A DNA stretch of 64,000 nucleotides from assembly GCA_000165345.1 (NCBI GenBank), contig CM000434.1, positions 1,120,001 to 1,184,000 of the forward strand. The letters run 5' to 3'. The notes below the pieces were generated by a model. It worked only from the letters and a program-made list of their open reading frames with translations, searched no databases and was not told the DNA's origin. Each line of letters starts with the position of its first letter. The first letter of the stretch is position 1. A program made the translations under genes and the position numbers. This document shows, one piece after another, positions 9,837 through 62,233 of this stretch.

Positions 9837-12800
9837 TTAAATAAAGTAATAAAATTCATTGATATCAAAATTCCTATTTCCAATTTGTGGAATTGGTGGA
9901 AAGAATGGAACCAAAGAGTCTTGGCTTCCAATATATAAGTTATTATAAATTCTCCAATAGACACTTCTAACTTTCTTTGCTGGGTGGAAGAGCCCCTGCA
10001 AAAGGTAGTTTAAGATAACTCCAGGACCTAGGGCGACTCTAAATGCATCTAGGGCTTCGTATACAGCTTGAACTAAATGAGGAGAGTTCTCAAAGACGTT
10101 TGGCCAAAGAAAGTTAAGTAGATGGATTAGAGCATCATTGCATCCTGTCCCTGCTACTCCTAAAGCCAAATGCTTACAAGCCCATGCTGCTGTTTGCCTA
10201 TGAACCTGATCTCTATCTGTAAGAGCTACCTCCAATAAAGGAGTTAAAGCATAAATATAATCCTTTGACATTGTTCCAATGTATTCAAACATAAATGAAA
10301 GAGTCTTTAAAACTCCATTTTGGACATTAAGGTCTGGAATCCTATATTCATTCATTATAGCTGGAAGTACTGTGTAAGGCATACAAATTTCTGAAATTAT
10401 AGCAATAGCAATAGTAGTACAAACTCTAAGTTGTCTCTCTTGTACTCTTAAGTTGTTTAACAAAGTTACTAATACATCTTGTGGTCCTATAGTCTTTGCA
10501 ATATGACCAAAAGTTTTGACTGATGCTCTCCTAATAGACTTCTTATTAGCTTTAAGACTATCTAAAAGATCAAAACAAATTCTGTCCCATTCTTTAGGAG
10601 ATACAAAATCACCTCCTTTCTTTGCACAGCATCCTAAAAGCTGTATGATATTTTCTTGTACTTTTTCATGTCTATTTTTCAGAATTGGGGTTAATCTTGG
10701 AACTAATTCTTTGATTGGAGGGCTTAATTTCTCTACTCTTACTTGAGTTACTATTGCATGTAATGCTCCAATAATACTCCCAAGAACTTCTGGATATTCT
10801 TCGCCTAAATATTCGTATAGAAATAATCCAATATGAGCAATCATTTGTTCTTCTTCACATTGTTTCATAACTCCAATAATACCAGCTACTAAATCTGCAG
10901 CTGTTTGTCTTGCTCTTGGAGAAGGAGTATTAAGACGCCATCTAATAATTGAGGATATTTGGGGTAAGTATTGTTTAGATCTTGTTCCAAGTAAAGTTAA
11001 TATTCTACCTACATTTTCAACAACAGACGAATCCTCGTCAGTAGAACTTTCCTGAAAGATGTATAATATTCCATCAACTAAGAGTTTTTCCAGTCTCTGT
11101 TCCAAATGAATTACTGGAACAATCTCCATTACATTTCTGACAGTTTCTAAGGCTTGAATTCTAAATGTCTCACTACCATCTCTGAGAAATATTAGTAATC
11201 CATCCAAAATAGGCTCCAATCCAACTTGTTTAGAAAGTGAAACTGTTGTATTTATGACCAATTTTGAGGTTCTTTTATCCAAAGAATTACGACTAGTCCA
11301 AAATTGTCCAAAGAAAGGTCCAAGAAGCTTTTGCTTAACAAACTCTGACCCAATTTCTTCAACAGAAACACATTGTTCCAGAACTCTCAGGACGATTCTT
11401 TTCATTTCATCATCCTGTGAACCAAATTCCCTTACTAGTACAGGAGAGATTTCCTTAATATAATAACAAGCTTGATTTGTTTCCATAAGAGAAATCATTT
11501 GTCCCATGGCTTTAAGGTAACTTGCCAAATTTCGACTTCTATATTCAGAAATCCCTTTCCAAATTTGTCCCAGAATTGGTTCAAAAGCCTCAATGCCATA
11601 AGGTGACGAAGCTTCAGCTAATGATGCAAGTGAGAGAGCTGTAATTACTCTAACTTTTTGATTTTCATCACTTAAACCATGAGAAATAATTTGGACTAAA
11701 CTCTTCAAGTGAGGGAGAACTGAGCTCCCATGCAAAATAGCTATTTGTTGGACAATCCTAATTCCAGTATGCCTTGCTTGCCAACTCTTCTTACTCTGAC
11801 AAACCGCTTGTAGAAAGATAACCAATGAGGGAATTCCCATAGCTGAGGCCAGAATAGCAAAAGCCTTAGCAGTAGTATTCCTCACATACTCATCAGGATG
11901 ATCTATATCTGGTCTCATAGTTGCAATCATAGTAGCCAGTCCAACAGCCTTTGCAAGATTTGAAATGATTTCTCTTCCTTCTTGGCGAGCATAATAATCT
12001 TGATCTATCAACATTGGTTCTATTACAACCAAAATCTTATGAACATATGGTTTAACTTTCTCTCCTAGACGTTGGAGGATTCTGTCTAAAGCTTTAACAA
12101 GCATATGCCTTTCCTGCTCTTCCAAAGTAGATTGCATTAGCAATGGAAGAAGATGATTTAGAATAATTCCAGGTCCATGATCACGAGCAGTTTCTACAAT
12201 CTGTTTCATTGCCTTTCTTCTAAGTATTGGAGCTCCATTTTTTATTTTCAATAAAAGTGTTAATACAAGTCGCTCGTTAACTTCCTCAGGAGAAAGGTCA
12301 TCATCAGAAATATTAGAAAAGAGTTTCCCAAAGAAATGGAAGTCTTCTATTCTTAGAGATAACTCTCCAAGTTCAGAATGAAATACCTGTCTCATAAAAC
12401 CTTGCTGGGGAACATCCTTACTTTCTCCCAATTCTTCTTGAAAAGATTTGGTTGGTTCAGGAATATCATATAAAGTAATTTTAGGTTCTAAAAGCTTTCT
12501 TTTGTTCTCCAAATTAGCTCTTCTAAGCTTCTCATATCCTTCAGGAGGTTTCACAATCTCGTACCCTTCTGAAGGGAGGATCTTGTCCAATTCCTCGTCA
12601 GTAAACTCTTTTTGAAAAGGTGGATGAAACCTTCCTTCTTCAGAAGTAGTTCTCTGGGCAGAACAAACCTCTGATGATTGTTCTGAACTATTAGTTTCAA
12701 CCGTTTCCTTAGCCTCTCTAAGGGTTTCCACTTCCCCATTGTCCCATCTTGACTTCTTTTGGTCCAGCTTCCCGCAACTACTAACTTCCTGATCCTCATC

Positions 12801-13870: not shown

Positions 13871-14598
13871 ACGCATATTCAAGTAACTTCGGGAAGCACC
13901 TCAAGAAATGAAACGGTGGGAGAAACGAATGTAGGAAAACAAGAGGGAGATCTATGAGTTGATAAGTAAATGCTTCAAAAGAATGTACGTGAAGTAGTAA
14001 TATTCATATTTGAACATTTATGCTTTTTTTTTTTTTAGATGAACTAGTAATTTAGGAGTTTAGCGCGAATAAATAGGAACATCATATATTGAGAATAGTA
14101 GAATCCAGGTAGAATGGGAGAAAAAAGAGAAAGAAGTGCAAAGAAAATGTATTTTAATAGCTGTTTTAGTTTAGAGGAAAAAAAAAAAGAAAATTAATGG
14201 AAAAAACATTAATAATAAGCTTGGATAAAATCTACATAGTCCCAATCCCCCCTGACCCGCTTCTATAGTAATCCATATGGAAGCCTGATTTCTGCTTGAT
14301 TTCATACGTAATTTTTACTTAAAAAGTGGGGTCCGTCATTGAATAGTATAATTTCAAGTGTTTTTCTTTGTGTGGAATAATTGGAGGTATAATTCTATTA
14401 ATTATAAGGAATATCTCAAAATAGAATTCGTTAAGATCTCGCAACTTGTGGTAAGTAAATGATCAAAATCCCCAAGAAAAGGTTGGGTAATCTTCTGGCT
14501 ATTGGGGAACTTGAATTATAGATTATAATAAGTTGTTGATTACTATAATTTGTAGGATATTCATATTAATTGATTCCTAATTACCATTAATAAGATAA

Positions 14599-16024
<1,426 letters not shown>

Positions 16025-16324
16025 ACTTCTTGGACATAAATCAAACCATTGGGAAGCTATCCTCATGGGGTGGCTATAGTCGATTTCATCATTTTTCCCA
16101 TAGATCTGCTATCGGGAGAATATTTCAGATTCTGCTACCCTATTATAATACGCGTTTAGCTTGCAGGGCATCATAATTTAGAACTTTTGTAGAATTCCGG
16201 AATTTCTCACAATCCAGGCATCATTTAGCACAAACATTTCAAACCTTCCAACAATAAGCTCATTCTTTAATTTATTTTTTCCCCCTAAACAATTCTTTAA
16301 TCATTTTACACGTATGTGCGCTAT

Positions 16325-16428
16325 CCACATTATGCATGCAATTCTGCAATACTGCCAGCATACCGGTATTCATGCAGTACTTGCGTGTGTGTGGGGAGGT
16401 TTTATCAAGAAATTTCTTGTGGACAAAT
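16325..16428. promoter_or_regulatory. Composite intergenic module (ATCCACAT, ATGCATGCA, ACCGGTAT, GTGGACAAAT) between the convergent beta-tubulin and CWC2 3' ends
   Basis: The sequence ctatccacattatgcatgcaattctgcaatactgccagcataccggtattcatgcag...cttgtggacaaatt shows the same motif set and order as at least 10 other intergenic sites in the window. Confidence 0.4.
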
Positions 16429-25195: not shown

Positions 25196-25281
25196 TATCC
25201 ACATGAAGTGTCAAATTTGCATGGTATATTTTATGCATGCAAACACCGGTATAGGAATGTGTGCAATAATGTGGACAAATA
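25196..25281. promoter_or_regulatory. Composite module (ATCCACATG, GTCAAATTTGCATGG, ATGCATGCA, ACCGGTAT, GTGGACAAAT) in the divergent promoter between the RAD51-paralog and the COWP-like gene
   Basis: The sequence is atccacatgaagtgtcaaatttgcatgg...tatgcatgcaaacaccggtatagg...atgtggacaaat. Confidence 0.45.
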
Positions 25282-28889: not shown

Positions 28890-29031
28890 ATATAATTTTA
28901 TCATTCTAGTTTTAATTAATTTATATTAATTCTTAAAGTTTATTTTTTCTTCTCATTATTATGATTATTCTTTAAACCCTGATTTGTCACTTTTACCGTT
29001 TTATTACGTGGCATTTTTTCTGATATATTAT

Positions 29032-29080
29032 TATCCACATTAATTCCAAATGCATGCATGCATGCAAAAAACACGTAATT
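29032..29080. promoter_or_regulatory. Composite module (TATCCACAT, TGCATGCATGCATGCA, ACACGTAATT) in the tail-to-tail region between the DEAD-box and roadblock genes
   Basis: The sequence is tatccacattaattccaaatgcatgcatgcatgcaaaaaacacgtaatt. Confidence 0.4.
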
Positions 29081-35003: not shown

Positions 35004-35120
35004 CATCCACATGCTCGAATACGATTTTGCATGTATACCGGTATGCAAATTTTTTTTAAGAATTAAAATAATTTTTTGTAATACCGGTACCGCCCCACAT
35101 TTGGGCGGGAATTTCCCGAG
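35004..35120. promoter_or_regulatory. Divergent promoter block between SUB1 and PRP19: composite module (CATCCACATG, TTTTGCATGTATACCGGTATGCAAAT, ATACCGGTACC) plus the near-palindromic E2F-like box TTTGGGCGGGAATTTCCCGAG
   Basis: The motifs lie at 35004..35014, 35025..35050, 35081..35096 and 35100..35120. Confidence 0.45.
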
Positions 35121-35472: not shown

Positions 35473-37131
35473 ATGTCATTAATTTGCTCAATTTCAGGAA
35501 CTACTCCTGAAGATCCTGTGATCTCAAAGACAGGATATATCTTTGAAAAAAGACTCATAGAGGAGTACATAAGATGCAATAATAGCTGTCCAATCACAAA
35601 GAGTGAGCTTTCTTTGGATGATTTGATTCAAGTTAAGTCCAAAAGTAATTTAAAGCCAAGATTGATTAAAAATACAAGTATTCCAGGTATTCTTGACTCC
35701 CTTAGAACAGAATGGGATGCAATGGCAATGGAGATGTTCCAGCTTAGATCTGAGCTTGAACAGACCAAATCACAACTGACTCATAGTCTTTATCAACATG
35801 ATGCTGCTTGTAGAGTGATTGCCAGAATTACTAGAGAAAAAGACCAAGCCATTAGTAGGTTAGCTGAAATCCAGAATAGTATTCTTGAGAAGGATGAAGA
35901 TAATATTACTAGTCTTCAAAGTGTAGGAGGTAAAAGGATTAGAGCAGAAGATAATTTCGTTAATATCCCAGAAGACGTTATAGACCTTTTTACTGAATAT
36001 TCGGATAAAATGCGACCAATTCGAAAAAAACAGTCATTCCCAGACCTTATACCTGCTGAACAAGTCAAAGAATTTTCATTAAAGAGTGAAATAAAACTCA
36101 AAGAGAACTGTAACATAGAGGTTGGAGTAGCTTTCAATGACGAAATTTACGTCTCTGGAATGGAAAATGGCGAGATTCTTGTATCAAGCATAGAATTTGA
36201 TAGAAATGAGATATCTTCTATCCCTATAAGTTATCCACAAAATTGTGAACAAGCCGTTTCTATTTTCGCCATCGAAAAATATTCAGGAAGTCAATACTCA
36301 TCTAAAAATACTAGCCAGCTCCTCTCCTCCTTAAATGTTCTTGCTTGCTTTCAAAACTCAAATAAGATTCATATATTCTCTAGAAACCAAGAAGATGATG
36401 AATCTTTTAACTTATCGCTCATGGATTTTAACTCTTCTTTTGAATCAAACATCATTATCAACTCACTCGAAAAACACCCTTTAGGAATGCATATAATTGC
36501 AAATTCTTCAAATAAAGGCCTATTTTCCATGTTTGATCTGGAATCCAGAAAACAACTTTTCCTACATCAACTTGAACAAAATAATTCATATTCACAACTC
36601 AAACCACATCCTGATGGCCTTATTCTTGGAGGAATTGTACCCAATGGGAATATTGTTGATATATGGGATATTAGAAATCTAGAGAAAATTTCATCCCTTG
36701 AACACCCCACGAAAAATAATAATATTGACCATAACGACCCAAATATTAGCAGAAACTCCAGCCTTTGCTTCTCAAATAATGGATACTATTTGCTTTCTAC
36801 CTCCCTTGACAATAAAATCCACCTTTGGGATCTTAGAAAATCTGCTATTCTTGATTCTCTTGAACTATCCACACTCCCTAACAATTCTAACCTGATTTTA
36901 CAAATTGATGAAAGTGGAAAATATGCCTCCTGCTTTAGCAAAAACCATTTCTCCATTTTCTCACTCTTCAATAAACACAAACTACAACTTATCTCATCCT
37001 TGTCCAATTTCTCTAATAGAAATAATAATAATAATCTCCCAGACAATATCCACCATATTCACTTCAACCAAAATCTTAATTCATTCTCCTCATTATGCCA
37101 CAGTGGAATTATTCGTATGTGGACAAATTAA
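35473..37131 (+). CDS. PRP19: Pre-mRNA-processing factor 19 (PRP19/PSO4): U-box E3 ligase plus coiled coil plus WD40
   Basis: The track start at 35428 is TTG; the first ATG is at 35473. The N-terminus MSLICSISGTTPEDPVISKTGYIFEKRLIEEYIRCNNSCPITKSELSLDDLIQVK matches the PRP19 U-box ([32 protein letters not shown]...). The C-terminal half has WD-like repeats (IWDIRN, HLWDLRK). Confidence 0.85.
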   Translation: MSLICSISGTTPEDPVISKTGYIFEKRLIEEYIRCNNSCPITKSELSLDDLIQVKSKSNLKPRLIKNTSIPGILDSLRTEWDAMAMEMFQLRSELEQTKSQLTHSLYQHDAACRVIARITREKDQAISRLAEIQNSILEKDEDNITSLQSVGGKRIRAEDNFVNIPEDVIDLFTEYSDKMRPIRKKQSFPDLIPAEQVKEFSLKSEIKLKENCNIEVGVAFNDEIYVSGMENGEILVSSIEFDRNEISSIPISYPQNCEQAVSIFAIEKYSGSQYSSKNTSQLLSSLNVLACFQNSNKIHIFSRNQEDDESFNLSLMDFNSSFESNIIINSLEKHPLGMHIIANSSNKGLFSMFDLESRKQLFLHQLEQNNSYSQLKPHPDGLILGGIVPNGNIVDIWDIRNLEKISSLEHPTKNNNIDHNDPNISRNSSLCFSNNGYYLLSTSLDNKIHLWDLRKSAILDSLELSTLPNNSNLILQIDESGKYASCFSKNHFSIFSLFNKHKLQLISSLSNFSNRNNNNNLPDNIHHIHFNQNLNSFSSLCHSGIIRMWTN

Positions 37132-37144
37132 TCACACGTAATGA

Positions 37145-37203
37145 AACACCGGTATATGCTTGCATGCAGAAAAATTTGCAATGCATGCATTTTATAATAT
37201 ATA
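37145..37203. promoter_or_regulatory. Composite module (CACACGTAAT, CACCGGTAT, GCTTGCATGCAG, CAATGCATGCA) in the tail-to-tail gap between PRP19 and the DDX21-like helicase; the GTGGACAAAT element overlaps the PRP19 stop codon (37127..37139)
   Basis: The sequence is atcacacgtaatgaaacaccggtatatgcttgcatgcagaaaaatttgcaatgcatgcattt. Confidence 0.4.
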
Positions 37204-37329: not shown

Positions 37330-39477
37330 TTAAAAACGCCTTCCTCCCCTTGAGAACCCACCTCTGGAACCCATTGAGCCAGAGCCTCCTCCTCTGGAAC
37401 CCATTGAGCCAGAACCTCCGCCTCTCGAACCTCCTGATTGTCTATATCCAACCTTGTTTGAAATATGTTGGCTGTTCATTCTGCCATTATGGCCAAAATC
37501 AGCATTATTATCAGTAACTGGTATTGATAACTCTGGTAAATTACTTGTAGCTGGAATAATCTGGAAGAAGCCTGAACCGTTATTATTCTTTGGAGTAAAG
37601 TTAGAAATTGCACTCTCCCACTGCCTAATTGAGCCCAGTGGAACATCAAAAACTGCACCATCTCCTTTCTTTAACAACGTCATACATTGTATTCTTTCTA
37701 TTAAACCCTCACAACCTCTTAAATTGCTCTTAAGACATCTCCATACGTAACTATTACTTGCAATTGGCTCTTTAAGCCTATTAAAAGTAATCATATAGCT
37801 CTTAAAATCTTCTCTACCATTCAATACTGAGCGATGAGGAATCTTCTTTAGATCATTATTTATACCTGTTAACTCTAATAAACAATGACTTAAAGCTCTT
37901 ACAGCACAATCCGGAATCTCTGGCATATCATCATCCATATCATTATCATTGATATTTGACTCAGCTTCAGTCTCCTCATCATCAGAATTACCTAATCTAT
38001 TCCTTTTTCTAGATGCCTTACCTGTTAGCTTTCTCCATAAACCTTGAATGATATGCTTAGCAGGATCTCTAACGCAATCCAACATTGCTGAGGGTATATC
38101 TTTTTCTAATAGATCCTTACCTATAGAATCAGCAGTCTTTTGTAAAATCTCTTCATATTGAGGTACACCAATTCTTTGAAAACTTATCTTACTTGCCTTC
38201 TCAATGCTTGATAAGAATGGATAATCTGACATATTACAAAACATTATAGCAGTTCCGAACTTTCCTGCTCTTCCTGTTCTTCCTGATCTATGTATATAAG
38301 TATCAATATCACGTGGAGGAGCTAATTGTATTACTACTGCAACATCATCAATATGTAATCCTCTTGCTGCAACATCTGTTGCTACTAAACAACGATACCT
38401 TCCTTCTTTAAAAGCTTGTAAAGCTATTTCTCTTTGATTTTGTTGTATATCACCATGTAATACCTGACACATCTTACTAATCTCACTTCTCATAGCTATT
38501 TCATTAGCTGTTTGCTTTGTTTCTGTAAATATAATACATTTTCCATTAATTCCCGCATACATTGTTATAATATCTCCTAATAAACCAGTTCTTTGAGGAT
38601 ATGCACACTGTATTGCCAAATGCCTAATCCTACTTCTGGCTGCTGCCTCATCCTCCTCCTCTCCATGAATTGAAATATGAGTCACGTCTACTGTAACAGT
38701 ATCACTTGACATAATCTCAGTTAAAATATTCTTTACCCATGGAGGCACAGTAGCACTGAATAGTAATACTTGAAATTTATTTTGTCTACTATGTGTTTCT
38801 CCATCTCCCGTTTCTTTTCTGACGCAGTCAATAATCTTATCAACAGTCTCTTTAAATCCCATCTCCAACATCTTATCAGCCTCATCCAATGTTAGCACTG
38901 ATATTTTACTAACATTTAAAATACCACGCTCAATAAAATCTAAAACTCTTCCTGGACATCCTACAACAATATCAACTCCCTTCTTTATTTCCTGAATTTG
39001 AGGATATTCAGGAGAACCACCATATACGCTACAAACTTTATACCTATCCTTTCCCTTCATTAACTCAAATTCATTTGATACCTGTTGTGCTAATTCTCTT
39101 GTTGGAAGTAAAACTAAAACTAACGGACGCCTACCATGCTTATTTGGATCAAATTTACCCTTCTTTAACAGTCTCTCAATGACTGGAAGAACAAATGCCA
39201 ATGTCTTACCTGTCCCAGTTTTCGCTTTCCCTAATACATCCTTCTTACCATATATAGACTCGAATGACTGAGCCTGAATAGGAAATAATCTCTCAATACC
39301 TCTACTCCTCAAAATCTCCCTACTCTCATCGCTTAATGGGAACCTATCTATTGAGCCATCTACCTCACTCTCCAACTTTCTTTTCTTATGATCCATATTG
39401 CTTTCCTTTTTCTTTGTTCTTCCTGTCAATAATGACATAACCACTACTATCCCGTCCTTAAGAGTCATAAGCGCCAC
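37330..39477 (-). CDS. DEAD-box RNA helicase, DDX21/DDX50 (Gu)-like, with a GUCT-type C-terminal domain and an RGG/GS-repeat tail
   Basis: 715 aa. Motif I is AKTGTGKTLAFVLP, II DEADKMLEMGF, III SAT and VI HRSGRTGRAG. The C-terminus reads GGSRGGGSGSMGSRGGGSGSMGSRGGFSRGGRRF. The ATG at 39477 directly abuts an E2F-like box (39479..39491), so the true start may be a downstream in-frame ATG (M4, M14 or M27). Confidence 0.8.
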   Translation of the reverse strand: MALMTLKDGIVVVMSLLTGRTKKKESNMDHKKRKLESEVDGSIDRFPLSDESREILRSRGIERLFPIQAQSFESIYGKKDVLGKAKTGTGKTLAFVLPVIERLLKKGKFDPNKHGRRPLVLVLLPTRELAQQVSNEFELMKGKDRYKVCSVYGGSPEYPQIQEIKKGVDIVVGCPGRVLDFIERGILNVSKISVLTLDEADKMLEMGFKETVDKIIDCVRKETGDGETHSRQNKFQVLLFSATVPPWVKNILTEIMSSDTVTVDVTHISIHGEEEDEAAARSRIRHLAIQCAYPQRTGLLGDIITMYAGINGKCIIFTETKQTANEIAMRSEISKMCQVLHGDIQQNQREIALQAFKEGRYRCLVATDVAARGLHIDDVAVVIQLAPPRDIDTYIHRSGRTGRAGKFGTAIMFCNMSDYPFLSSIEKASKISFQRIGVPQYEEILQKTADSIGKDLLEKDIPSAMLDCVRDPAKHIIQGLWRKLTGKASRKRNRLGNSDDEETEAESNINDNDMDDDMPEIPDCAVRALSHCLLELTGINNDLKKIPHRSVLNGREDFKSYMITFNRLKEPIASNSYVWRCLKSNLRGCEGLIERIQCMTLLKKGDGAVFDVPLGSIRQWESAISNFTPKNNNGSGFFQIIPATSNLPELSIPVTDNNADFGHNGRMNSQHISNKVGYRQSGGSRGGGSGSMGSRGGGSGSMGSRGGFSRGGRRF
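37361..37435. repeat. 30-nt tandem coding repeat (2.5 copies) encoding the RGGGSGSMGS units of the helicase C-terminus
   Basis: The repeat cctctggaacccattgagccagagcctcct occurs in two copies plus a partial third on the + strand. Confidence 0.7.
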
Positions 39478-46659: not shown

Positions 46660-48423
46660 ATGCCTTTGAGCCAGAATATGAGTATGACTGAACTTTCACG
46701 TTTCAGGACAAGAATATGTGAGAGAAAGGCTTTACATGGAGTATGCGAGCTTGACGAGAGGTGTCCTTTTTCACATTGTCTTTCCTGGCATCGTAGAAAT
46801 CCTTACGAATATGCGTATAGACCGAACTTATGTCCTAATGTAGTTTTCCAGAATGAGAATAAGAAGATGCGTGTTAAGAACTATTGCCAAAGAGGCAGAA
46901 TGTGTATGTTTTCTCATACAAAAGAGGAGCAAATGTATCATGTTTTAGTATATAAGACTCAATTATGTCGCGAATATCCGTTATGTACAAAACATTATTG
47001 TCCATTTGCTCATGGCTTAGATGAATTAAGAAATCCAGAAACTATAGAATTTGACCCAGTACAAGGACCAGAAGTAATTGAACGTCAAAGACTTGTTCAT
47101 GATTGTAATAAATTCAATGAAATTGATTTATCCGAAGATTTGAATGACTCCATAATTATAAGGAATAAGGAGGCTATAATAAGTAACGTTACAACTTCCC
47201 CAATATCTCCATCAAATTCTCCTTTACATTCAAATATGACCGCTTCAAGCCTAGCACCTGTAATGGATCAAACAAAGAGTCAAAATAGTAAATATTCTTT
47301 AAGGAATAAATCTCAAACATCTGCATCAAGTACAAATAACTCACCTAAAAAGGGTGGTAGGGGAAGTAGTTTTAATCACAATAAGGCAAATTCTAATAAT
47401 CAAAATAGACAATTTACAAATCATGAATTATTAAAGGGAGAGTTAACTCCTATAAACAATACAAATGAGTCTCCTGTTACACCATCAACAGGGTGTGAGA
47501 CCCCTCTACATTCTCAAAATCACATTGCTTCAACAGGATTTAAGAATGATGCTCGTAAAACTGTAAATAGAGATTTTCAGAGAAAGGAAGTCGATAGAGC
47601 TAGAGGTGCTTCTCCGAATACAAGAAGTGCGTTTCCTAAAGTTATAGATGGAGACGAAGTTGCTCATGCTAGAGATAATGTGAATATTCCTCCACCTCCT
47701 TATAATGCAATAGGCTTAAATTTTCCATGTAATGAAGGATTAAATGACAATACAGATCCTTCGTCACTATTACCAAACTATGATTTTGGAAGATTTGCAT
47801 GGAATGGCTACTTTGATAGAAATAAGAATTTATTAAATAATAGACTAATCGACTATGAAAAGAATAAAATGGTTCAAGAGCCATTATGTAGTATTGATGA
47901 TTATGGAAATGGGGCAAGTGTCGAACAAATGTCTTATTTAATGCACTTACAATTGCTTTCATTATCAGACTCTCCAGAAAAGTTATTAGAGACAATGAAT
48001 AACAATGATTCAGATTGGAGTTTATCGAATCCTGCTTTTGGAATTACAGGGATTTACAATACTCAACAAAATAGAGATTCAAGTGCATGCAATAGTCCAT
48101 GTAACTTTTCTACAGAATTAAATTCAAATCCTATTCCTTCTACATCTCACCAAGATGCAATAAGATGTCAGAATGAAGTCAAAGTTACTCCTAATTCTCA
48201 ACTTTTCTTATCAAACAACTATTTTGATGATTATAGGTTTGATTTTATTAATGACAATGTTCCTAATCATGACAAGATGGGACTAAGGGACATTAATAAT
48301 TTGTACAATAGATCAGATATTAACTTAAAGATCGATTGTACAGATAATTCATGGAATCTGTTTCATCCAAGCTTACTTGGTTCAAGTACCAGAGATGGAG
48401 ATTTTTGGACGGAAGGGAAATGA
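46660..48423 (+). CDS. CCCH-type zinc finger protein (tandem C-x-C-x-C-x-H fingers), hypothetical RNA-binding
   Basis: 587 aa. The N-terminal 130 aa contain several CCCH fingers (RICERKALHGVCELDERCPFSH; YCQRGRMCMFSH; LCREYPLCTKHYCPFAH). The rest is S/N-rich low complexity. Confidence 0.6.
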   Translation: MPLSQNMSMTELSRFRTRICERKALHGVCELDERCPFSHCLSWHRRNPYEYAYRPNLCPNVVFQNENKKMRVKNYCQRGRMCMFSHTKEEQMYHVLVYKTQLCREYPLCTKHYCPFAHGLDELRNPETIEFDPVQGPEVIERQRLVHDCNKFNEIDLSEDLNDSIIIRNKEAIISNVTTSPISPSNSPLHSNMTASSLAPVMDQTKSQNSKYSLRNKSQTSASSTNNSPKKGGRGSSFNHNKANSNNQNRQFTNHELLKGELTPINNTNESPVTPSTGCETPLHSQNHIASTGFKNDARKTVNRDFQRKEVDRARGASPNTRSAFPKVIDGDEVAHARDNVNIPPPPYNAIGLNFPCNEGLNDNTDPSSLLPNYDFGRFAWNGYFDRNKNLLNNRLIDYEKNKMVQEPLCSIDDYGNGASVEQMSYLMHLQLLSLSDSPEKLLETMNNNDSDWSLSNPAFGITGIYNTQQNRDSSACNSPCNFSTELNSNPIPSTSHQDAIRCQNEVKVTPNSQLFLSNNYFDDYRFDFINDNVPNHDKMGLRDINNLYNRSDINLKIDCTDNSWNLFHPSLLGSSTRDGDFWTEGK

Positions 48424-48684
48424 AAGGATATTACAGCTAATTATTAATTTATTAAAAATTTAAATTTCATGCTTACAGCTTTATTCTTATTGGTTTTCTC
48501 CTTAGTACTTTCTCGGCTAATTAATCAATTATGGTCGAGATAATTCATGCTTAACGTTCTTTTGTTTGTGATTTTTAAATAAAGGAATCAGCTAAACAAT
48601 TTTATTCTTTAATTGGGCCTAGATTACTTATTGTTTTTTTTCTTAGTGATGAAGTTTTGTATTAATTAATTTTTATCTTTACGA

Positions 48685-49245: not shown

Positions 49246-50967
49246 ATGAAAAGTAATGAAATTTTTGAAAGAATCAAAAAGAGCTTTAAGACAAGGGTGG
49301 AGGACTTTAAGCAAGGCAGACAGAGTTGGAGATTGAAGGAATGGCATCATCTACAATCAATACTGTATTTAATCTATGGAGCAGGAGCGCTCGTTTTTGT
49401 GAGATTGATAGCTAATTCAAACCCAGATAACAACAACTATGATCATTTTGTGAATGATCCAAATGATCCAGGGAGTTCATTCACCCATTGTGGGATTACT
49501 CCAATGTTTAATATGATACCAATTCCGGGATCTTACATATTATTAATATACTCAGTTTATTCTTTATCAATAATAAGCTTGACAATTTCATTCTTATCAT
49601 TTATATTGGGATTCAGTTTCAAATTTTTCAGCAGAATTCCTAGAAGCTACTTTTTCTCTCCATCAAAAAGAACAAGAGTATTGGGTTTTTGCTGCAAGAT
49701 ATTACCAATAATTATCAGAATTTTGAATTTGTTTTTTATTCTACTTTTGGTCATCCCATTTATATATATCACAACCAGTGGAGCTTGTTACAGGAGATTA
49801 GTTAGATTTGAAAGAAATAAAGTACAAAATTGCAGGATATGGGTTAATAAATGTGCAAAAGACCACCGAATTTTTGGAAGGCATTTAGAATGCAGTTTAA
49901 GAAAAAACTTTAAACACTTTCCAACGGAAATTGTTGAAGATCCCACAATTGGCGAAAATCTCGACATTATTATTGGAGGTCCAATGCCTCTGTTATGTCC
50001 TATGTGCAATGAAGTGAGAATGGACCCAAAATCACCTTTATATAAAGGAGAAGCTTATGTTGAGCAACTTAAGTCATCTATCTCTAAAATGGAAGCAATT
50101 AATATTAAAGACAGGTCATTATATCAGGTAGAAGCATTATCGCTTATTCAATTAAGTAATCATATTTCCACAAGATCCGAGAATATTCCTAATATTTATA
50201 CAATCCAAGATTACGAAGAGATGATAAAGCCTATTATGTTTAATAATATTTCACCATTAATGCAAAAGATCATTAGTAATCGCCAGAATTTATATGGCTA
50301 TTTTAAACTTTTGCCATTTTCACTTATCCAACTCGAATCTAATGTGAAAGGCAAGACCAATGAAAAAGAAAAAAATGATGATTTGGTTTCTCTAGAAGAG
50401 CCTATTAGTATTGATTTTAATTCTGAATATATTAAAAATTATGATAATTATAGACCCTCCATACAACTACCTTCAAAAGTTAGTATTCCATCCAAATTTA
50501 AGTCAATTGTTGAAAAATATGCTGCAGCTCTTTCATCACAGGTAAATGGTGATACTTTATTTAGTGAAGAAGTTACTCAAAAAAAAGATACTTTTCCAAA
50601 CAAAAATCCTAAAAAGAATCAACATAAAGAGGTTGACAAAGCAACTCTAAATAATTCATATAAAAGCACATTTTATTTTAGTGGCGACTCTAACCCCACT
50701 CCACTAACTATAGATCAAAGTATCGATTTAAACAGAGAATTTGAAGCTGCAAGATATCAAATACAAGTTTCCATGCACGAAGGAAGCAACTTTTCAAGAT
50801 CAATCTTTGTATTTATGCTCATCTCTCTCATTTTTTGGGCATTGACACGCTTCTTTTCTTTTGCTATCTTTGATACTACCAGAAATGAGGCCTGCTTTTA
50901 TGTTCCTAATTCAAAAAGAACGCTCATTTGGTCCAAGCTAAGAACTTTCTTGGACATACTAAGCTAA
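49246..50967 (+). CDS. Hypothetical polytopic membrane protein
   Basis: 573 aa. Hydrophobic helices are at about residues 35-55, 95-120 and 150-175, with a C-terminal TM (IFVFMLISLIFWALTRFF). It has a CPMCNEV motif and no recognisable domain. Confidence 0.45.
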   Translation: MKSNEIFERIKKSFKTRVEDFKQGRQSWRLKEWHHLQSILYLIYGAGALVFVRLIANSNPDNNNYDHFVNDPNDPGSSFTHCGITPMFNMIPIPGSYILLIYSVYSLSIISLTISFLSFILGFSFKFFSRIPRSYFFSPSKRTRVLGFCCKILPIIIRILNLFFILLLVIPFIYITTSGACYRRLVRFERNKVQNCRIWVNKCAKDHRIFGRHLECSLRKNFKHFPTEIVEDPTIGENLDIIIGGPMPLLCPMCNEVRMDPKSPLYKGEAYVEQLKSSISKMEAINIKDRSLYQVEALSLIQLSNHISTRSENIPNIYTIQDYEEMIKPIMFNNISPLMQKIISNRQNLYGYFKLLPFSLIQLESNVKGKTNEKEKNDDLVSLEEPISIDFNSEYIKNYDNYRPSIQLPSKVSIPSKFKSIVEKYAAALSSQVNGDTLFSEEVTQKKDTFPNKNPKKNQHKEVDKATLNNSYKSTFYFSGDSNPTPLTIDQSIDLNREFEAARYQIQVSMHEGSNFSRSIFVFMLISLIFWALTRFFSFAIFDTTRNEACFYVPNSKRTLIWSKLRTFLDILS

Positions 50968-51010: not shown

Positions 51011-51092
51011 GTCGATCTGCCCGAGTGGTTAAGGGGCTTGACTAGAAATCAAGTGCGGTCTCCGCGCACAGGTTCGAATCCTGTGGTCGACG
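51011..51092 (+). tRNA. tRNA-Ser (anticodon AGA), class II with a long variable arm
   Basis: The sequence is GTCGATC-TG-CCCGAGTGGTTAAGGGG-C-TTGAC-TAGAAAT-CAAG...long variable arm GTGCGGTCTCCGCGCAC...AGGTTCGAATCCTGT-GGTCGAC-G. The 7-bp acceptor stem pairs, including one G-U. U33 precedes AGA. The T-loop is GGTTCGAATCC. 82 nt. Confidence 0.85.
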
Positions 51093-51992: not shown

Positions 51993-52067
51993 ATACCGGC
52001 GCAGTACACGTAATTTTTTTTGAATTTCTTAAAATCCTATACCGGCATTTTTAAGTACCGGTATGCG
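51993..52067. promoter_or_regulatory. Composite module (ATACCGGCGCAGTACACGTAATTTT, ATACCGGCATTT, TACCGGTATGCG), 83-157 bp upstream of the beta-adaptin ATG
   Basis: Three ACCGG(C/T)A elements and one ACACGTAAT. Confidence 0.4.
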
Positions 52068-56794: not shown

Positions 56795-56955
56795 ACATTT
56801 CCCGCCTATTCAATTCATGCACCATTCTCATAGTCTAGTTTGACAACAGATTTCAAATTTAGAAATTAATCAATTAATTACCCTAAATAATTGTCTAATT
56901 AATTTACAACTAATAACTATTCTATCCTATTTCTTTTTTTTTTATAAATATATTT

Positions 56956-57027
56956 GGTACCGGTACCTATCATAAATTTTTATATTGTCTCGAGATCCAA
57001 TTTTTAGATATGCATGCATGCAAAAGT
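56956..57027. promoter_or_regulatory. Composite module (12-bp palindrome GGTACCGGTACC and ATATGCATGCATGCAAAAG) in a tail-to-tail intergenic region
   Basis: The sequence is ggtaccggtacctatcataaatttttatattgtctcgagatccaatttttagatatgcatgcatgcaaaag. Confidence 0.35.
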
Positions 57028-57489
57028 AAAATAAAGAAAATCAATAGAAATAGAAATAAAATATAAGGTAAGGAAATGAAAGAGTTCCAATGTATAAATA
57101 TAATAAGTTTTCTCTTTTGATTTCCATCTTTCTTTAATTAACTTCTAATGTATAGACTTGTAATAGCAGTAAATGTACAAATAAAACTTATAAGAAGGAC
57201 TAGAAATTTACTCCTCTCTTTTTTTCTCCATTTTATCCCTTTCTTTCTCTTTGTTTCTCTCTATAATAAATAAGAATGAGTTCCCCCAAGCTCTTCTTGT
57301 TCATAAATATAGAGAAACATTTAATATATAGTTTATAGTAATTTGAGAAATTGGATTCAACCAAGTAAAACTAGACTTTTAAATTTTGTCCTTCTTATAT
57401 TATTTCTTCTTATTCTCTTTCTCTGTTATTCCTTTCCTCTCTTCATTCCTCATAATAAACTATTTCCTAAGTAATTTATTATTACCAAA

Positions 57490-60367: not shown

Positions 60368-62233
<1,866 letters not shown>

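What the first reader, a model, noticed from the sequence alone, without database searches (positions are those of the whole stretch)
37127..37203. Promoter-like composite modules sit in convergent (tail-to-tail) gaps, suggesting antisense or lncRNA promoters or 3'-end elements
Four copies of the module lie where two genes end facing each other and no promoter is expected. They are at 16325-16428 (beta-tubulin vs CWC2), 29032-29080 (DEAD-box vs roadblock), 37127-37203 (PRP19 vs DDX21-like, where GTGGACAAAT overlaps the PRP19 stop codon) and 56956-57027. Either the module drives antisense or intergenic non-coding transcripts back into the flanking genes, or it is a 3'-end, terminator or insulator element rather than a promoter. 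Abundant antisense lncRNAs have been described in Cryptosporidium.
Basis: inference. Interest (0 to 1): 0.6.

Follow-up and report, generated by a model that had tools for sequence, protein, structure and literature searches.

The report
Conserved promoter-type motif clusters between convergent genes
In this Cryptosporidium parvum stretch, conserved clusters of promoter-type DNA motifs sit between genes that end facing each other; one marks the published start of an antisense RNA over beta-tubulin, so they are most likely known-type antisense/bidirectional promoters.

Summary
All four places hold clusters built on TGCATGCA (26 copies in 64 kb against 0.7 expected). Its partner motifs are TGTGGACAA, ACACGTAAT and TACCGGTA, and they co-localise with it (11 of 15 exact copies within 100 bp, P about 5e-5). 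Gene orientation is convergent at all four places.

The clusters persist in C. ubiquitum, the chipmunk genotype, C. canis and partly C. felis, while the surrounding spacer diverges.

The window is C. parvum chromosome 6. Li et al. 2021 (PMC7840661) already list an antisense lncRNA, Cp_lnc_291. It starts at window 16328, 5 nt from the TGCATGCA of the beta-tubulin/CWC2 cluster, and runs 2.1 kb across beta-tubulin.

That cluster has the same motif order and orientation as a conserved cluster in a true head-to-head gap (25196-25278).

No catalogued RNA starts at the focal PRP19/DDX21-like cluster or at the other two. TGCATGCA is equally frequent in convergent, divergent and tandem gaps. A boundary or terminator role therefore remains open.

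Verdict: a real, conserved feature and a further example of a published kind. Interest is modest.

The parts
16322..16330 (-). Gap 1: TATCCACAT, a variant of TTGTCCACAT (reverse complement ATGTGGATA). The published 5' end of Cp_lnc_291 (16328, minus strand) lies inside it.
16333..16340 (.). Gap 1: TGCATGCA (ApiAP2_1 palindrome). Listed at -14 upstream of Cp_lnc_291 in Li 2021 table S3.
   Evidence: invariant in C. parvum, C. ubiquitum and C. canis
16361..16368 (.). Gap 1: TACCGGTA palindrome.
16418..16426 (+). Gap 1: TGTGGACAA, pointing towards CWC2. Its reverse complement TTGTCCACAAG is listed at -97 of Cp_lnc_291.
14220..16328 (-). Published antisense lncRNA Cp_lnc_291: 2,109 nt, unspliced across the beta-tubulin intron. 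It covers the whole beta-tubulin transcription unit.
29003..29011 (-). Gap 2: ATTACGTGG, the reverse complement of CCACGTAAT. It is the left arm of an inverted ACGTAAT pair.
29031..29039 (-). Gap 2: TTATCCACA. The chipmunk genotype has TTGTCCACA here. C. ubiquitum has the inverted copy on the other side of TGCATGCA, and C. canis has both.
29051..29066 (.). Gap 2: TGCATGCATGCATGCA, three overlapping TGCATGCA copies.
29071..29079 (+). Gap 2: ACACGTAAT, the right arm of the inverted pair.
37118..37126 (+). Gap 3: TGTGGACAA, inside the last PRP19 codons (M-W-T). It is partly under protein constraint.
37134..37142 (+). Gap 3: ACACGTAAT. In C. ubiquitum, the chipmunk genotype and C. canis its TAA is the PRP19 stop codon. 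In C. parvum it is non-coding.
37147..37154 (.). Gap 3: CACCGGTA.
37161..37189 (.). Gap 3: two TGCATGCA copies (37161-68 and 37182-89).
56956..56967 (.). Gap 4: GGTACCGGTACC palindrome. Retained in an unidentified Cryptosporidium contig (L009) and in degenerate form in C. felis.
57011..57022 (.). Gap 4: TGCATGCATGCA. C. canis has (TGCA)n at the same place and C. felis has GCATGC.
25196..25278 (.). Reference cluster in a true head-to-head gap (g10 minus / g11 plus): TATCCACAT, TGCATGCA, CACCGGTA, TGTGGACAA. Order and orientation are the same as in gap 1. Conserved in C. ubiquitum and C. canis.

Best explanation
The four clusters are DNA-level transcription-factor binding modules of the Cryptosporidium 'ApiAP2_1' class. 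Each has a TGCATGCA core, which AP2 domains such as cgd2_3490 bind in vitro according to the literature. Three partner elements accompany it: TGTGGACAA, ACACGTAAT and (A)TACCGGTA(T).

The same modules occur in head-to-head and head-to-tail gaps, where they are presumably mRNA promoters. In tail-to-tail gaps they most likely act as stage-specific, often bidirectional, promoters. These would launch non-coding transcripts back over the flanking genes, or over unannotated intergenic RNAs.

Shown: the motifs, their clustering, their conservation, the shared architecture with a divergent-gap module, and one published antisense RNA that begins at a module.

Inferred: that the module drives that RNA, and that the other three modules also initiate transcripts.
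For: (1) The motifs are enriched and clustered.

(2) Phylogenetic footprinting. In gap 1, motif columns are invariant at 25/28 positions against 200/460 for other columns. In gap 3 the figures are 24/36 against 60/177. In gap 2 the motifs are present in all four species but rearranged, which looks like binding-site turnover. The gap 3 motif order is kept, in degenerate form, even in C. felis. The gap 4 motifs are kept in C. canis and C. felis.

(3) In gap 3 the ACACGTAAT motif is kept whether it is coding (C. ubiquitum, chipmunk genotype, C. canis) or non-coding (C. parvum), so the constraint is not on the protein.

(4) Cp_lnc_291 begins at 16328, 5 nt from TGCATGCA. It is 2.1 kb long and antisense to beta-tubulin. 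It retains the tubulin intron, which argues against a mis-stranded mRNA artefact.

(5) Li 2021 table S3 lists ANTTGCATGYA and TTGTCCACATK among the motifs upstream of lncRNAs. The two co-occur upstream of at least 8 lncRNAs.

(6) Gap 1 has the same order and orientation of elements as the conserved module in the divergent gap at 25196-25278.

(7) Three other catalogued lncRNAs in this window (Cp_lnc_6, Cp_lnc_8, Cp_lnc_292) also start just 3' of their sense gene. Cp_lnc_6 and Cp_lnc_8 start within 100 nt of E2F sites. Cp_lnc_292 starts about 190 nt from a TGCATGCA module.
Against: No catalogued lncRNA 5' end lies at gaps 2, 3 or 4. Only one of the eight possible outward directions from the four modules has a published transcript.

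Cp_lnc_257, antisense to the DDX21-like gene, is modelled as starting 1.7 kb from the gap 3 module.

Short-read 5' ends are imprecise. Li 2021 report no fixed spacing between motif and start site.

TGCATGCA lies within 100 bp of about 16% of intergenic positions here. Some association with lncRNA starts is therefore expected simply because both are intergenic.

Sporozoite ATAC-seq peaks were enriched for E2F motifs but not AP2 motifs (PMC11761812).

The orientation rule for TGTGGACAA is only a tendency. In the published table, 6 proximal copies are co-directional with the lncRNA and 2 are opposite.
Confidence: 0.5

Rival explanations
1. The modules are boundary, roadblock or terminator elements. 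A protein bound to TGCATGCA and its partner sites sits between transcription units. It stops or insulates polymerases arriving from both sides, as the general regulatory factors Reb1, Rap1 and Abf1 do in yeast (my own background knowledge). Any antisense initiation would be a by-product of the nucleosome-free region it creates.
For: TGCATGCA is no rarer in tail-to-tail gaps than in promoter-containing gaps. In the window it occurs in 4/7 convergent, 3/7 divergent and 6/13 tandem gaps. Across five other species the GCATGC core occurs in 16/25 convergent, 11/29 divergent and 17/49 tandem gaps (these counts are not independent).

The modules lie centrally, beyond short conserved post-stop elements of both flanking genes.

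Three of the four modules have no catalogued transcript.
Against: No direct evidence exists for termination or insulation. The same architecture sits in a head-to-head gap where nothing needs terminating. One module coincides with an RNA 5' end. AP2 motifs were not enriched in sporozoite open chromatin.
Confidence: 0.2
2. The modules are position-independent regulatory sites for nearby protein-coding genes. On this reading they sit in whatever short spacer is available in a very compact genome, act on promoters 1-2 kb away, and initiate no RNA themselves.
For: Intergenic space is scarce: 17.5 kb of the 64 kb window. The modules are conserved. Gaps tend to carry either the E2F type or the AP2_1 type of motif, which suggests regulatory classes of neighbourhoods.
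Against: No evidence for distal or downstream-acting elements in Cryptosporidium turned up in the papers read. The Cp_lnc_291 start lies at the module.
Confidence: 0.15
3. The motifs work at the RNA level inside overlapping 3' UTRs. Examples would be a protein-binding UGCAUG element, or a GGACA m6A-type site upstream of the poly(A) signal.
For: The gap 3 module starts at the PRP19 stop codon, so it must be transcribed as 3' UTR. In gap 1 the only canonical A(A/G)TAAA hexamers lie beyond the module on each side. In gap 4 AGTAAA/AATAAA follow TGCATGCATGCA directly. GTGGACA contains GGACA.
Against: The directional motifs are antisense to the adjacent mRNA in gaps 1 and 2 and sense in gap 3, so orientation is inconsistent. 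Identical modules occur in a 5'-5' gap with no 3' UTR. RNA folding of the modules is only marginal, with z about -2 or weaker. The hexamer scan is uninformative in AT-rich DNA.
Confidence: 0.08
4. The clusters are chance or compositional clustering of short GC-containing words in AT-rich spacers.
For: None beyond the short length of the words.
Against: TGCATGCA is enriched 36-fold, and no shuffle came near. The clustering has P about 5e-5. The motifs are conserved across species while the flanks diverge.
Confidence: 0.01

Closest known systems
Upstream motif set of C. parvum lncRNAs (Li, Baptista, Sateriale, Striepen, Kissinger 2021, PMC7840661): E2F/DP1, ApiAP2_1 ANTTGCATGYA, Motif 5 TTGTCCACATK, Motif 4 with ATACCGG
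   Same: The organism and the motifs are the same. One of the four sites (beta-tubulin/CWC2) is the upstream region of their Cp_lnc_291. Their lncRNAs are mostly antisense and biased to the 3' end of the sense gene. They also propose bidirectional promoters.
   Different: They did not sort motifs by the orientation of flanking genes, describe the composite order of elements, or show cross-species conservation. The PRP19/DDX21-like, DEAD-box/119-aa and g25/g26 gaps have no lncRNA in their catalogue. ACACGTAAT is not among their five motifs.
ApiAP2_1 / TGCATGCA promoter motif of Apicomplexa (Bankier 2003; Oberstaller 2013, PMC3734150; Oberstaller 2014, PMC4117751; bound in vitro by cgd2_3490 and PF14_0633)
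   Same: The palindromic octamer is the same and is over-represented in non-coding DNA of chromosome 6. It is linked to stage-specific gene clusters.
   Different: It was described as an element upstream of genes. Here it is equally frequent where no gene start exists, and it comes with three partner motifs absent from the 25-motif list of Oberstaller 2013.
Antisense promoters in 3' nucleosome-free regions and bidirectional promoters of compact genomes (budding yeast: my own background knowledge; Giardia lamblia: Teodorovic 2007, as cited in PMC7840661)
   Same: Promoter-type factor sites lie downstream of genes and give rise to antisense non-coding RNAs. Initiation is inherently two-directional.
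   Different: The factors (AP2, E2F) and motifs differ. No chromatin or nascent-RNA data exist for these Cryptosporidium sites.
Roadblock termination by DNA-bound general regulatory factors (Reb1/Rap1/Abf1) in yeast (my own background knowledge)
   Same: Sequence-specific factor sites sit between closely packed transcription units, including convergent pairs.
   Different: Nothing here shows termination. This is a functional analogy only.

Membership tests
ApiAP2_1 (TGCATGCA) cis-regulatory motif | Palindromic TGCATGCA, strongly over-represented and confined to non-coding DNA | tested here: met
   26 copies against 0.72 expected; 23 of the 26 are intergenic.
ApiAP2_1 (TGCATGCA) cis-regulatory motif | Bound by an AP2-domain protein (cgd2_3490 and relatives) | not testable with these tools
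   Known only from published protein-binding microarrays. No in vivo binding data were found for these sites.
ApiAP2_1 (TGCATGCA) cis-regulatory motif | Lies upstream of the gene it regulates | tested here: not met
   In the four convergent gaps there is no annotated gene start on either side.
Promoter of an antisense lncRNA (class of Li et al. 2021) | A stranded-RNA-seq transcript antisense to a coding gene starts within 100 nt downstream of the motifs | tested here: inconclusive
   Met at gap 1: Cp_lnc_291 has its 5' end at 16328, with motifs at -14 and -97. Not met in that catalogue at gaps 2, 3 and 4. The newer CpBGF annotation with 766 lncRNAs could not be consulted.
Bidirectional promoter | Same element order and orientation as a module serving two divergent genes | tested here: met
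   Gap 1 and the module at 25196-25278 both read TATCCACAT, TGCATGCA, ACCGGTA, TGTGGACAA. Gap 2 and its orthologues also have outward-pointing arms. Gap 3 is one-sided.
Bidirectional promoter | Transcripts initiate in both directions | not testable with these tools
   Only the leftward RNA of gap 1 is catalogued.
3'-end / poly(A) signal element | Fixed sense orientation and a fixed position relative to the stop codon or the A(A/G)TAAA hexamer | tested here: not met
   The orientation of the directional motifs differs between gaps. The distance from the stop codon ranges from 0 to about 300 nt. The hexamer scan shows no consistent relation. The same module occurs in a 5'-5' gap.
Roadblock / insulator element | Transcription from both sides ends at the bound site | not testable with these tools
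   Needs nascent-RNA or poly(A)-site maps.
Known structured ncRNA gene in the gap | Match to an Rfam family or a tRNA | tested here: not met
   The only hit in the window is tRNA-Ser at 51011-51092. Nothing was found in the four gaps.

The most novel reading that the evidence does not exclude
The TGCATGCA composite modules are not promoters in the usual sense but orientation-independent boundary elements. On this reading a general-regulatory-factor-like AP2 complex occupies about half of all intergenic spacers whatever the gene orientation. It separates tightly packed transcription units by terminating convergent polymerases, and antisense RNAs arise only as a side effect. It would be an apicomplexan counterpart of yeast Reb1/Rap1/Abf1 sites, with TGTGGACAA, ACACGTAAT and TACCGGTA as co-factor sites.
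Probability: 0.15. Interest if true: 0.6.

Novelty: new member of a known kind. Interest (0 to 1): 0.3.

Why it matters
Cryptosporidium packs about 3,900 genes into 9 Mb, and roughly one gene in ten has an antisense RNA of unknown function. Knowing which DNA elements launch those RNAs is the first step towards testing their function without touching the coding strand.

This analysis adds three things. The TGCATGCA class of elements is as common between gene tails as between gene heads. It has a recurrent composite grammar with three partner motifs. And that grammar is conserved across intestinal Cryptosporidium species.

It also points to four small, well-defined, mutable targets. The principle, however, is already published.

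Tried and rejected
1. Cp_lnc_352 carries TTGTCCACATA at -58 and looked like a match to the gap 3 site. It belongs to CPATCC_0001450 elsewhere in the genome and was rejected.

2. I searched the published lncRNA FASTA for 16-mers from the PRP19 and DDX21-like 3' ends and from gap 3. Nothing was found.

3. Cp_lnc_257 is antisense to the DDX21-like gene, but it maps to 38880-39457, 1.7 kb from the module, with no motif upstream. It is not usable as support.

4. RNA folding of the gap 1 and gap 3 modules gave z about -2 on the plus strand and -0.4 to -1.0 on the minus strand. That is what palindromic words would give, so a hairpin-terminator reading was dropped.

5. A scan for the A(A/G)TAAA poly(A) hexamer showed no consistent relation to the modules.

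6. Rfam and tRNA scans of the gaps found nothing.

7. Pfam and PDB searches for the supposed 'roadblock' protein gave no hit. A three-frame attempt failed on stop codons.

8. I tested a directional rule for TGTGGACAA. In the window's tandem and divergent gaps, 5 of 5 nearby copies point at a gene. In the published lncRNA table the split for proximal copies is only 6 to 2, so this is a tendency and not a rule.

9. CTAGTTT looked like a post-stop 3' element: all 8 intergenic copies are in sense orientation after a stop codon. Its total count is not above expectation, so it is kept only as a side note.

10. Literature searches for GTCCAC in Cryptosporidium, and for TGCATGCA together with convergent gaps, found nothing specific.

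11. The supplementary tables of the small-RNA paper PMC9465071 are not held.
Full report
**What the window is.** Three lncRNA sequences published for Cryptosporidium parvum IOWA-ATCC match it exactly. It is therefore C. parvum chromosome 6 around CPATCC_0016340-0016620.

**Checking the observation.** TGCATGCA occurs 26 times against 0.72 expected from dinucleotide shuffles, and 23 of the 26 are intergenic. Exact TGTGGACAA, ACACGTAAT and TACCGGTA each occur five times. By simple composition I estimate about 0.4-0.8 expected for each.
- Eleven of these 15 copies lie within 100 bp of a TGCATGCA. The expectation is 2.4 if they were placed at random in intergenic DNA (P about 5e-5). The 'composite module' is therefore a real association.
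- I built a gene map from ORFs and from gene calls in syntenic loci of C. ubiquitum, the chipmunk genotype, C. canis, C. felis and C. bovis. All four gaps are truly tail-to-tail on this map.
- Minor corrections apply. GTGGACAAAT abuts the PRP19 stop codon and does not overlap it. The 'roadblock' identity of the 119-aa gene is unconfirmed. The fourth cluster has only GGTACCGGTACC and TGCATGCATGCA.

**Conservation.**
- Gap 3, the focal site: ATGTGGACA, CACACGTAAT, CACCGGTAT and TGCATGCA are retained in the same order in C. ubiquitum, the chipmunk genotype and C. canis, while the rest of the spacer diverges. A degenerate copy with the same order survives in C. felis, and none survives in C. bovis.
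- In three species the PRP19 reading frame runs on and stops at the TAA inside CACGTAA. In C. parvum it stops 8 nt earlier. The motif is therefore kept whether or not it is coding.
- A caveat: the TGTGGACAA copy encodes the terminal M-W-T of the last WD repeat, so part of its conservation may be protein-level.
- Gap 1: motif columns are invariant at 25/28 positions against 200/460 for the other columns.
- Gap 2: every species has the motifs, but their order and orientation shift. C. canis shows a full dyad: TTACGTGT, TTGTCCACAT, ATGCATG, ATGTGGACAA, ACACGTAA.
- Gap 4: ACCGGT and the (TGCA)n run are retained.

**What is already published.** Li et al. 2021 (PMC7840661) catalogued 396 lncRNAs, 92% of them antisense and biased to the 3' end of the sense gene. 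They searched the 100 nt upstream of each and suggested bidirectional promoters.
- Their table S3 motifs are E2F/DP1, ApiAP2 ANTTGCATGYA, poly-T, a Motif 4 that contains ATACCGG, and Motif 5 TTGTCCACATK.
- The table lists Cp_lnc_291, antisense to 'Tubulin beta chain' CPATCC_0016390, with AATTGCATGCA at -14 and TTGTCCACAAG at -97. Both strings are the reverse complement of window 16333-43 and 16416-26.
- The deposited sequence maps to 16328 down to 14220 on the minus strand. It is 2,109 nt long and retains the tubulin intron. It rises in the last of the five condition columns of their expression table, which I take to be the 48 h samples.
- Motif 5 co-occurs with the TGCATGCA motif upstream of at least eight lncRNAs genome-wide.

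**Comparison with real promoters in the window.** The head-to-head gap between g10 (minus) and g11 (plus) holds TATCCACAT, TGCATGCA, CACCGGTA and TGTGGACAA at 25196-25278. The two GTGGA elements point outward. This module is conserved in C. ubiquitum and C. canis. Gap 1 has the same elements in the same order and orientation. Gap 2 and its orthologues also have outward-pointing arms. This shared grammar is the main sequence-level argument that the tail-to-tail clusters are the same kind of object as a bidirectional promoter.

**Distribution by gap type.** TGCATGCA is present in 4/7 convergent, 3/7 divergent and 6/13 tandem gaps.
- In the other species the GCATGC core is present in 16/25 convergent, 11/29 divergent and 17/49 tandem gaps. 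These loci overlap and are orthologous, so this is not an independent sample.
- E2F-type cores (SSCGCC) number 31, and all are intergenic. They too occur in 3/7 convergent gaps. Six of the 7 convergent gaps therefore carry some promoter-type motif.
- Promoter-type motifs in tail-to-tail spacers are thus the rule here and not an oddity of this module.
- Two other catalogued lncRNAs in the window, Cp_lnc_6 and Cp_lnc_8, start just beyond the stop codon of their sense gene, 49-72 nt from E2F sites. Cp_lnc_292 starts 77 nt beyond a stop codon and about 190 nt from a full TGCATGCA module.

**Weighing the explanations.** The promoter reading explains four things: the shared grammar with the divergent gap, the Cp_lnc_291 start, the published motif association, and conservation at the DNA level. 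Its weaknesses are several.
- Three of the four modules, including the focal one, have no catalogued RNA start.
- The only antisense RNA over the DDX21-like gene, Cp_lnc_257, is modelled 1.7 kb away.
- Short-read 5' ends are imprecise.
- The motif is so common in spacers that some coincidence with lncRNA starts is expected. It lies within 100 bp of about 16% of intergenic positions.
- Sporozoite ATAC-seq peaks showed E2F but not AP2 motifs (PMC11761812).

A boundary/roadblock role fits the orientation-independent distribution and the central placement. It has no direct support, and it cannot explain why the same module sits in a head-to-head gap unless it is a general spacer element.

An RNA-level 3' UTR role is unlikely. 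The directional motifs are antisense to the neighbouring mRNA in gaps 1 and 2 but sense in gap 3. The modules also fold only marginally.

One caution on Cp_lnc_291: if it were a strand-assignment artefact of the abundant tubulin mRNA, its 5' end would instead mark the tubulin poly(A) site. The retained intron argues against that.

**Novelty.** The phenomenon, the two main motifs and one of the four sites are published. Several details appear to be new. TGCATGCA is not depleted in tail-to-tail gaps. The modules have a composite order, and ACACGTAAT and TACCGGTA act as partners; both are absent from the 25-motif list of Oberstaller 2013. The modules are conserved across species. The focal PRP19/DDX21-like module is best described as a further, not yet transcript-linked, member of a known kind.

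**Side observation in gap 4.** A 26-28-nt block, AAGAATGAGTTCCCCCAAGCTCTTCTTG (57272-57299), is identical in C. parvum, C. canis and C. felis. It forms the tip of a hairpin whose outer stem differs in each species but stays paired: 9 of 25 pairs show compensatory changes. Folding gives z = -6.4 on the plus strand. It has no Rfam match. It lies 51-250 nt downstream, on the plus strand, of the (TGCA)n motif. It could be part of an unannotated plus-strand RNA driven by that module, or a UTR element of a flanking gene. This is unresolved.

Noticed in passing
window 57272-57299 (L008 12090-12115; L010 11702-11727): A 26-28-nt block, AAGAATGAGTTCCCCCAAGCTCTTCTTG, is identical in C. parvum, C. canis and C. 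felis inside a convergent gap. It is the tip of a hairpin whose outer stem differs between species but stays paired (9 of 25 pairs compensatory; z = -6.4 on the plus strand). U-G pairs favour the plus strand. There is no Rfam match. It may be an unannotated structured RNA or a UTR element.
   Followed up: partly
window, all SSCGCC sites (e.g. 9639, 19203, 19444, 19647, 56801): All 31 E2F-core sites (GGCGCC/GGCGGG type) are intergenic and none is in a gene. They also occur in 3 of the 7 convergent gaps. One (TTTCCCGCC, 56798-56806) starts 4 nt after a stop codon. Gaps tend to be either E2F-type or TGCATGCA-type.
   Followed up: partly
window 9820, 16491, 28906, 37266, 51312, 56835, 57368, 62683: All eight intergenic copies of CTAGTTT lie in mRNA-sense orientation, 17-345 nt after a stop codon. 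Those in gaps 2 and 3 are conserved across species. The total count is not above the composition expectation, so this may be a weak 3'-end element or chance. It overlaps the published 'MAACTA' upstream motif.
   Followed up: partly
window 16130-16260: The 3' flank of beta-tubulin is unusually conserved, as far as C. felis. An example is TTGTAGAATTCCGGAA at 16187-16202, identical in C. ubiquitum and C. canis. It is either a constrained tubulin 3' UTR or a constrained part of the antisense Cp_lnc_291.
   Followed up: no
window 37118-37142; L001 11626-11650; L011 about 11595-11615: The PRP19 reading frame ends inside the ACACGTAA motif in C. ubiquitum, the chipmunk genotype and C. canis, and at the TAG of ACACGTAG in C. 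felis. In C. parvum it ends 8 nt earlier. The DNA motif is kept across this change of frame.
   Followed up: yes
window 38880-39457 (+), 48279-48500 (-), about 3647 (+), about 8029 (-): Four further published lncRNAs map in the window: Cp_lnc_257, Cp_lnc_292, Cp_lnc_6 and Cp_lnc_8. Three start just 3' of their sense gene, next to E2F or TGCATGCA sites. Cp_lnc_257 lies inside the DDX21-like coding region and correlates with its sense mRNA (r = 0.83).
   Followed up: partly
In other species it is called as an intron-containing 119-120 aa protein without domains.
   Followed up: partly
window 48084, 60700 and 875: Three TGCATGCA copies lie outside the mapped intergenic gaps. Two are inside coding regions (genes 46660-48423 and 60368-62224). 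One is downstream of the first gene, near the window edge.
   Followed up: no
window 35036-35089 and 52006-52063: TACCGGTA and ACACGTAAT also occur without a full TGCATGCA. There are two TACCGGTA copies next to an E2F site upstream of PRP19, and ACACGTAAT plus TACCGGTA upstream of the adaptin gene. The partner motifs can therefore be used independently.
   Followed up: no
window 51011-51092 (+): A tRNA-Ser (AGA) gene lies 44 nt after the stop codon of the gene at 49246-50967.
   Followed up: no
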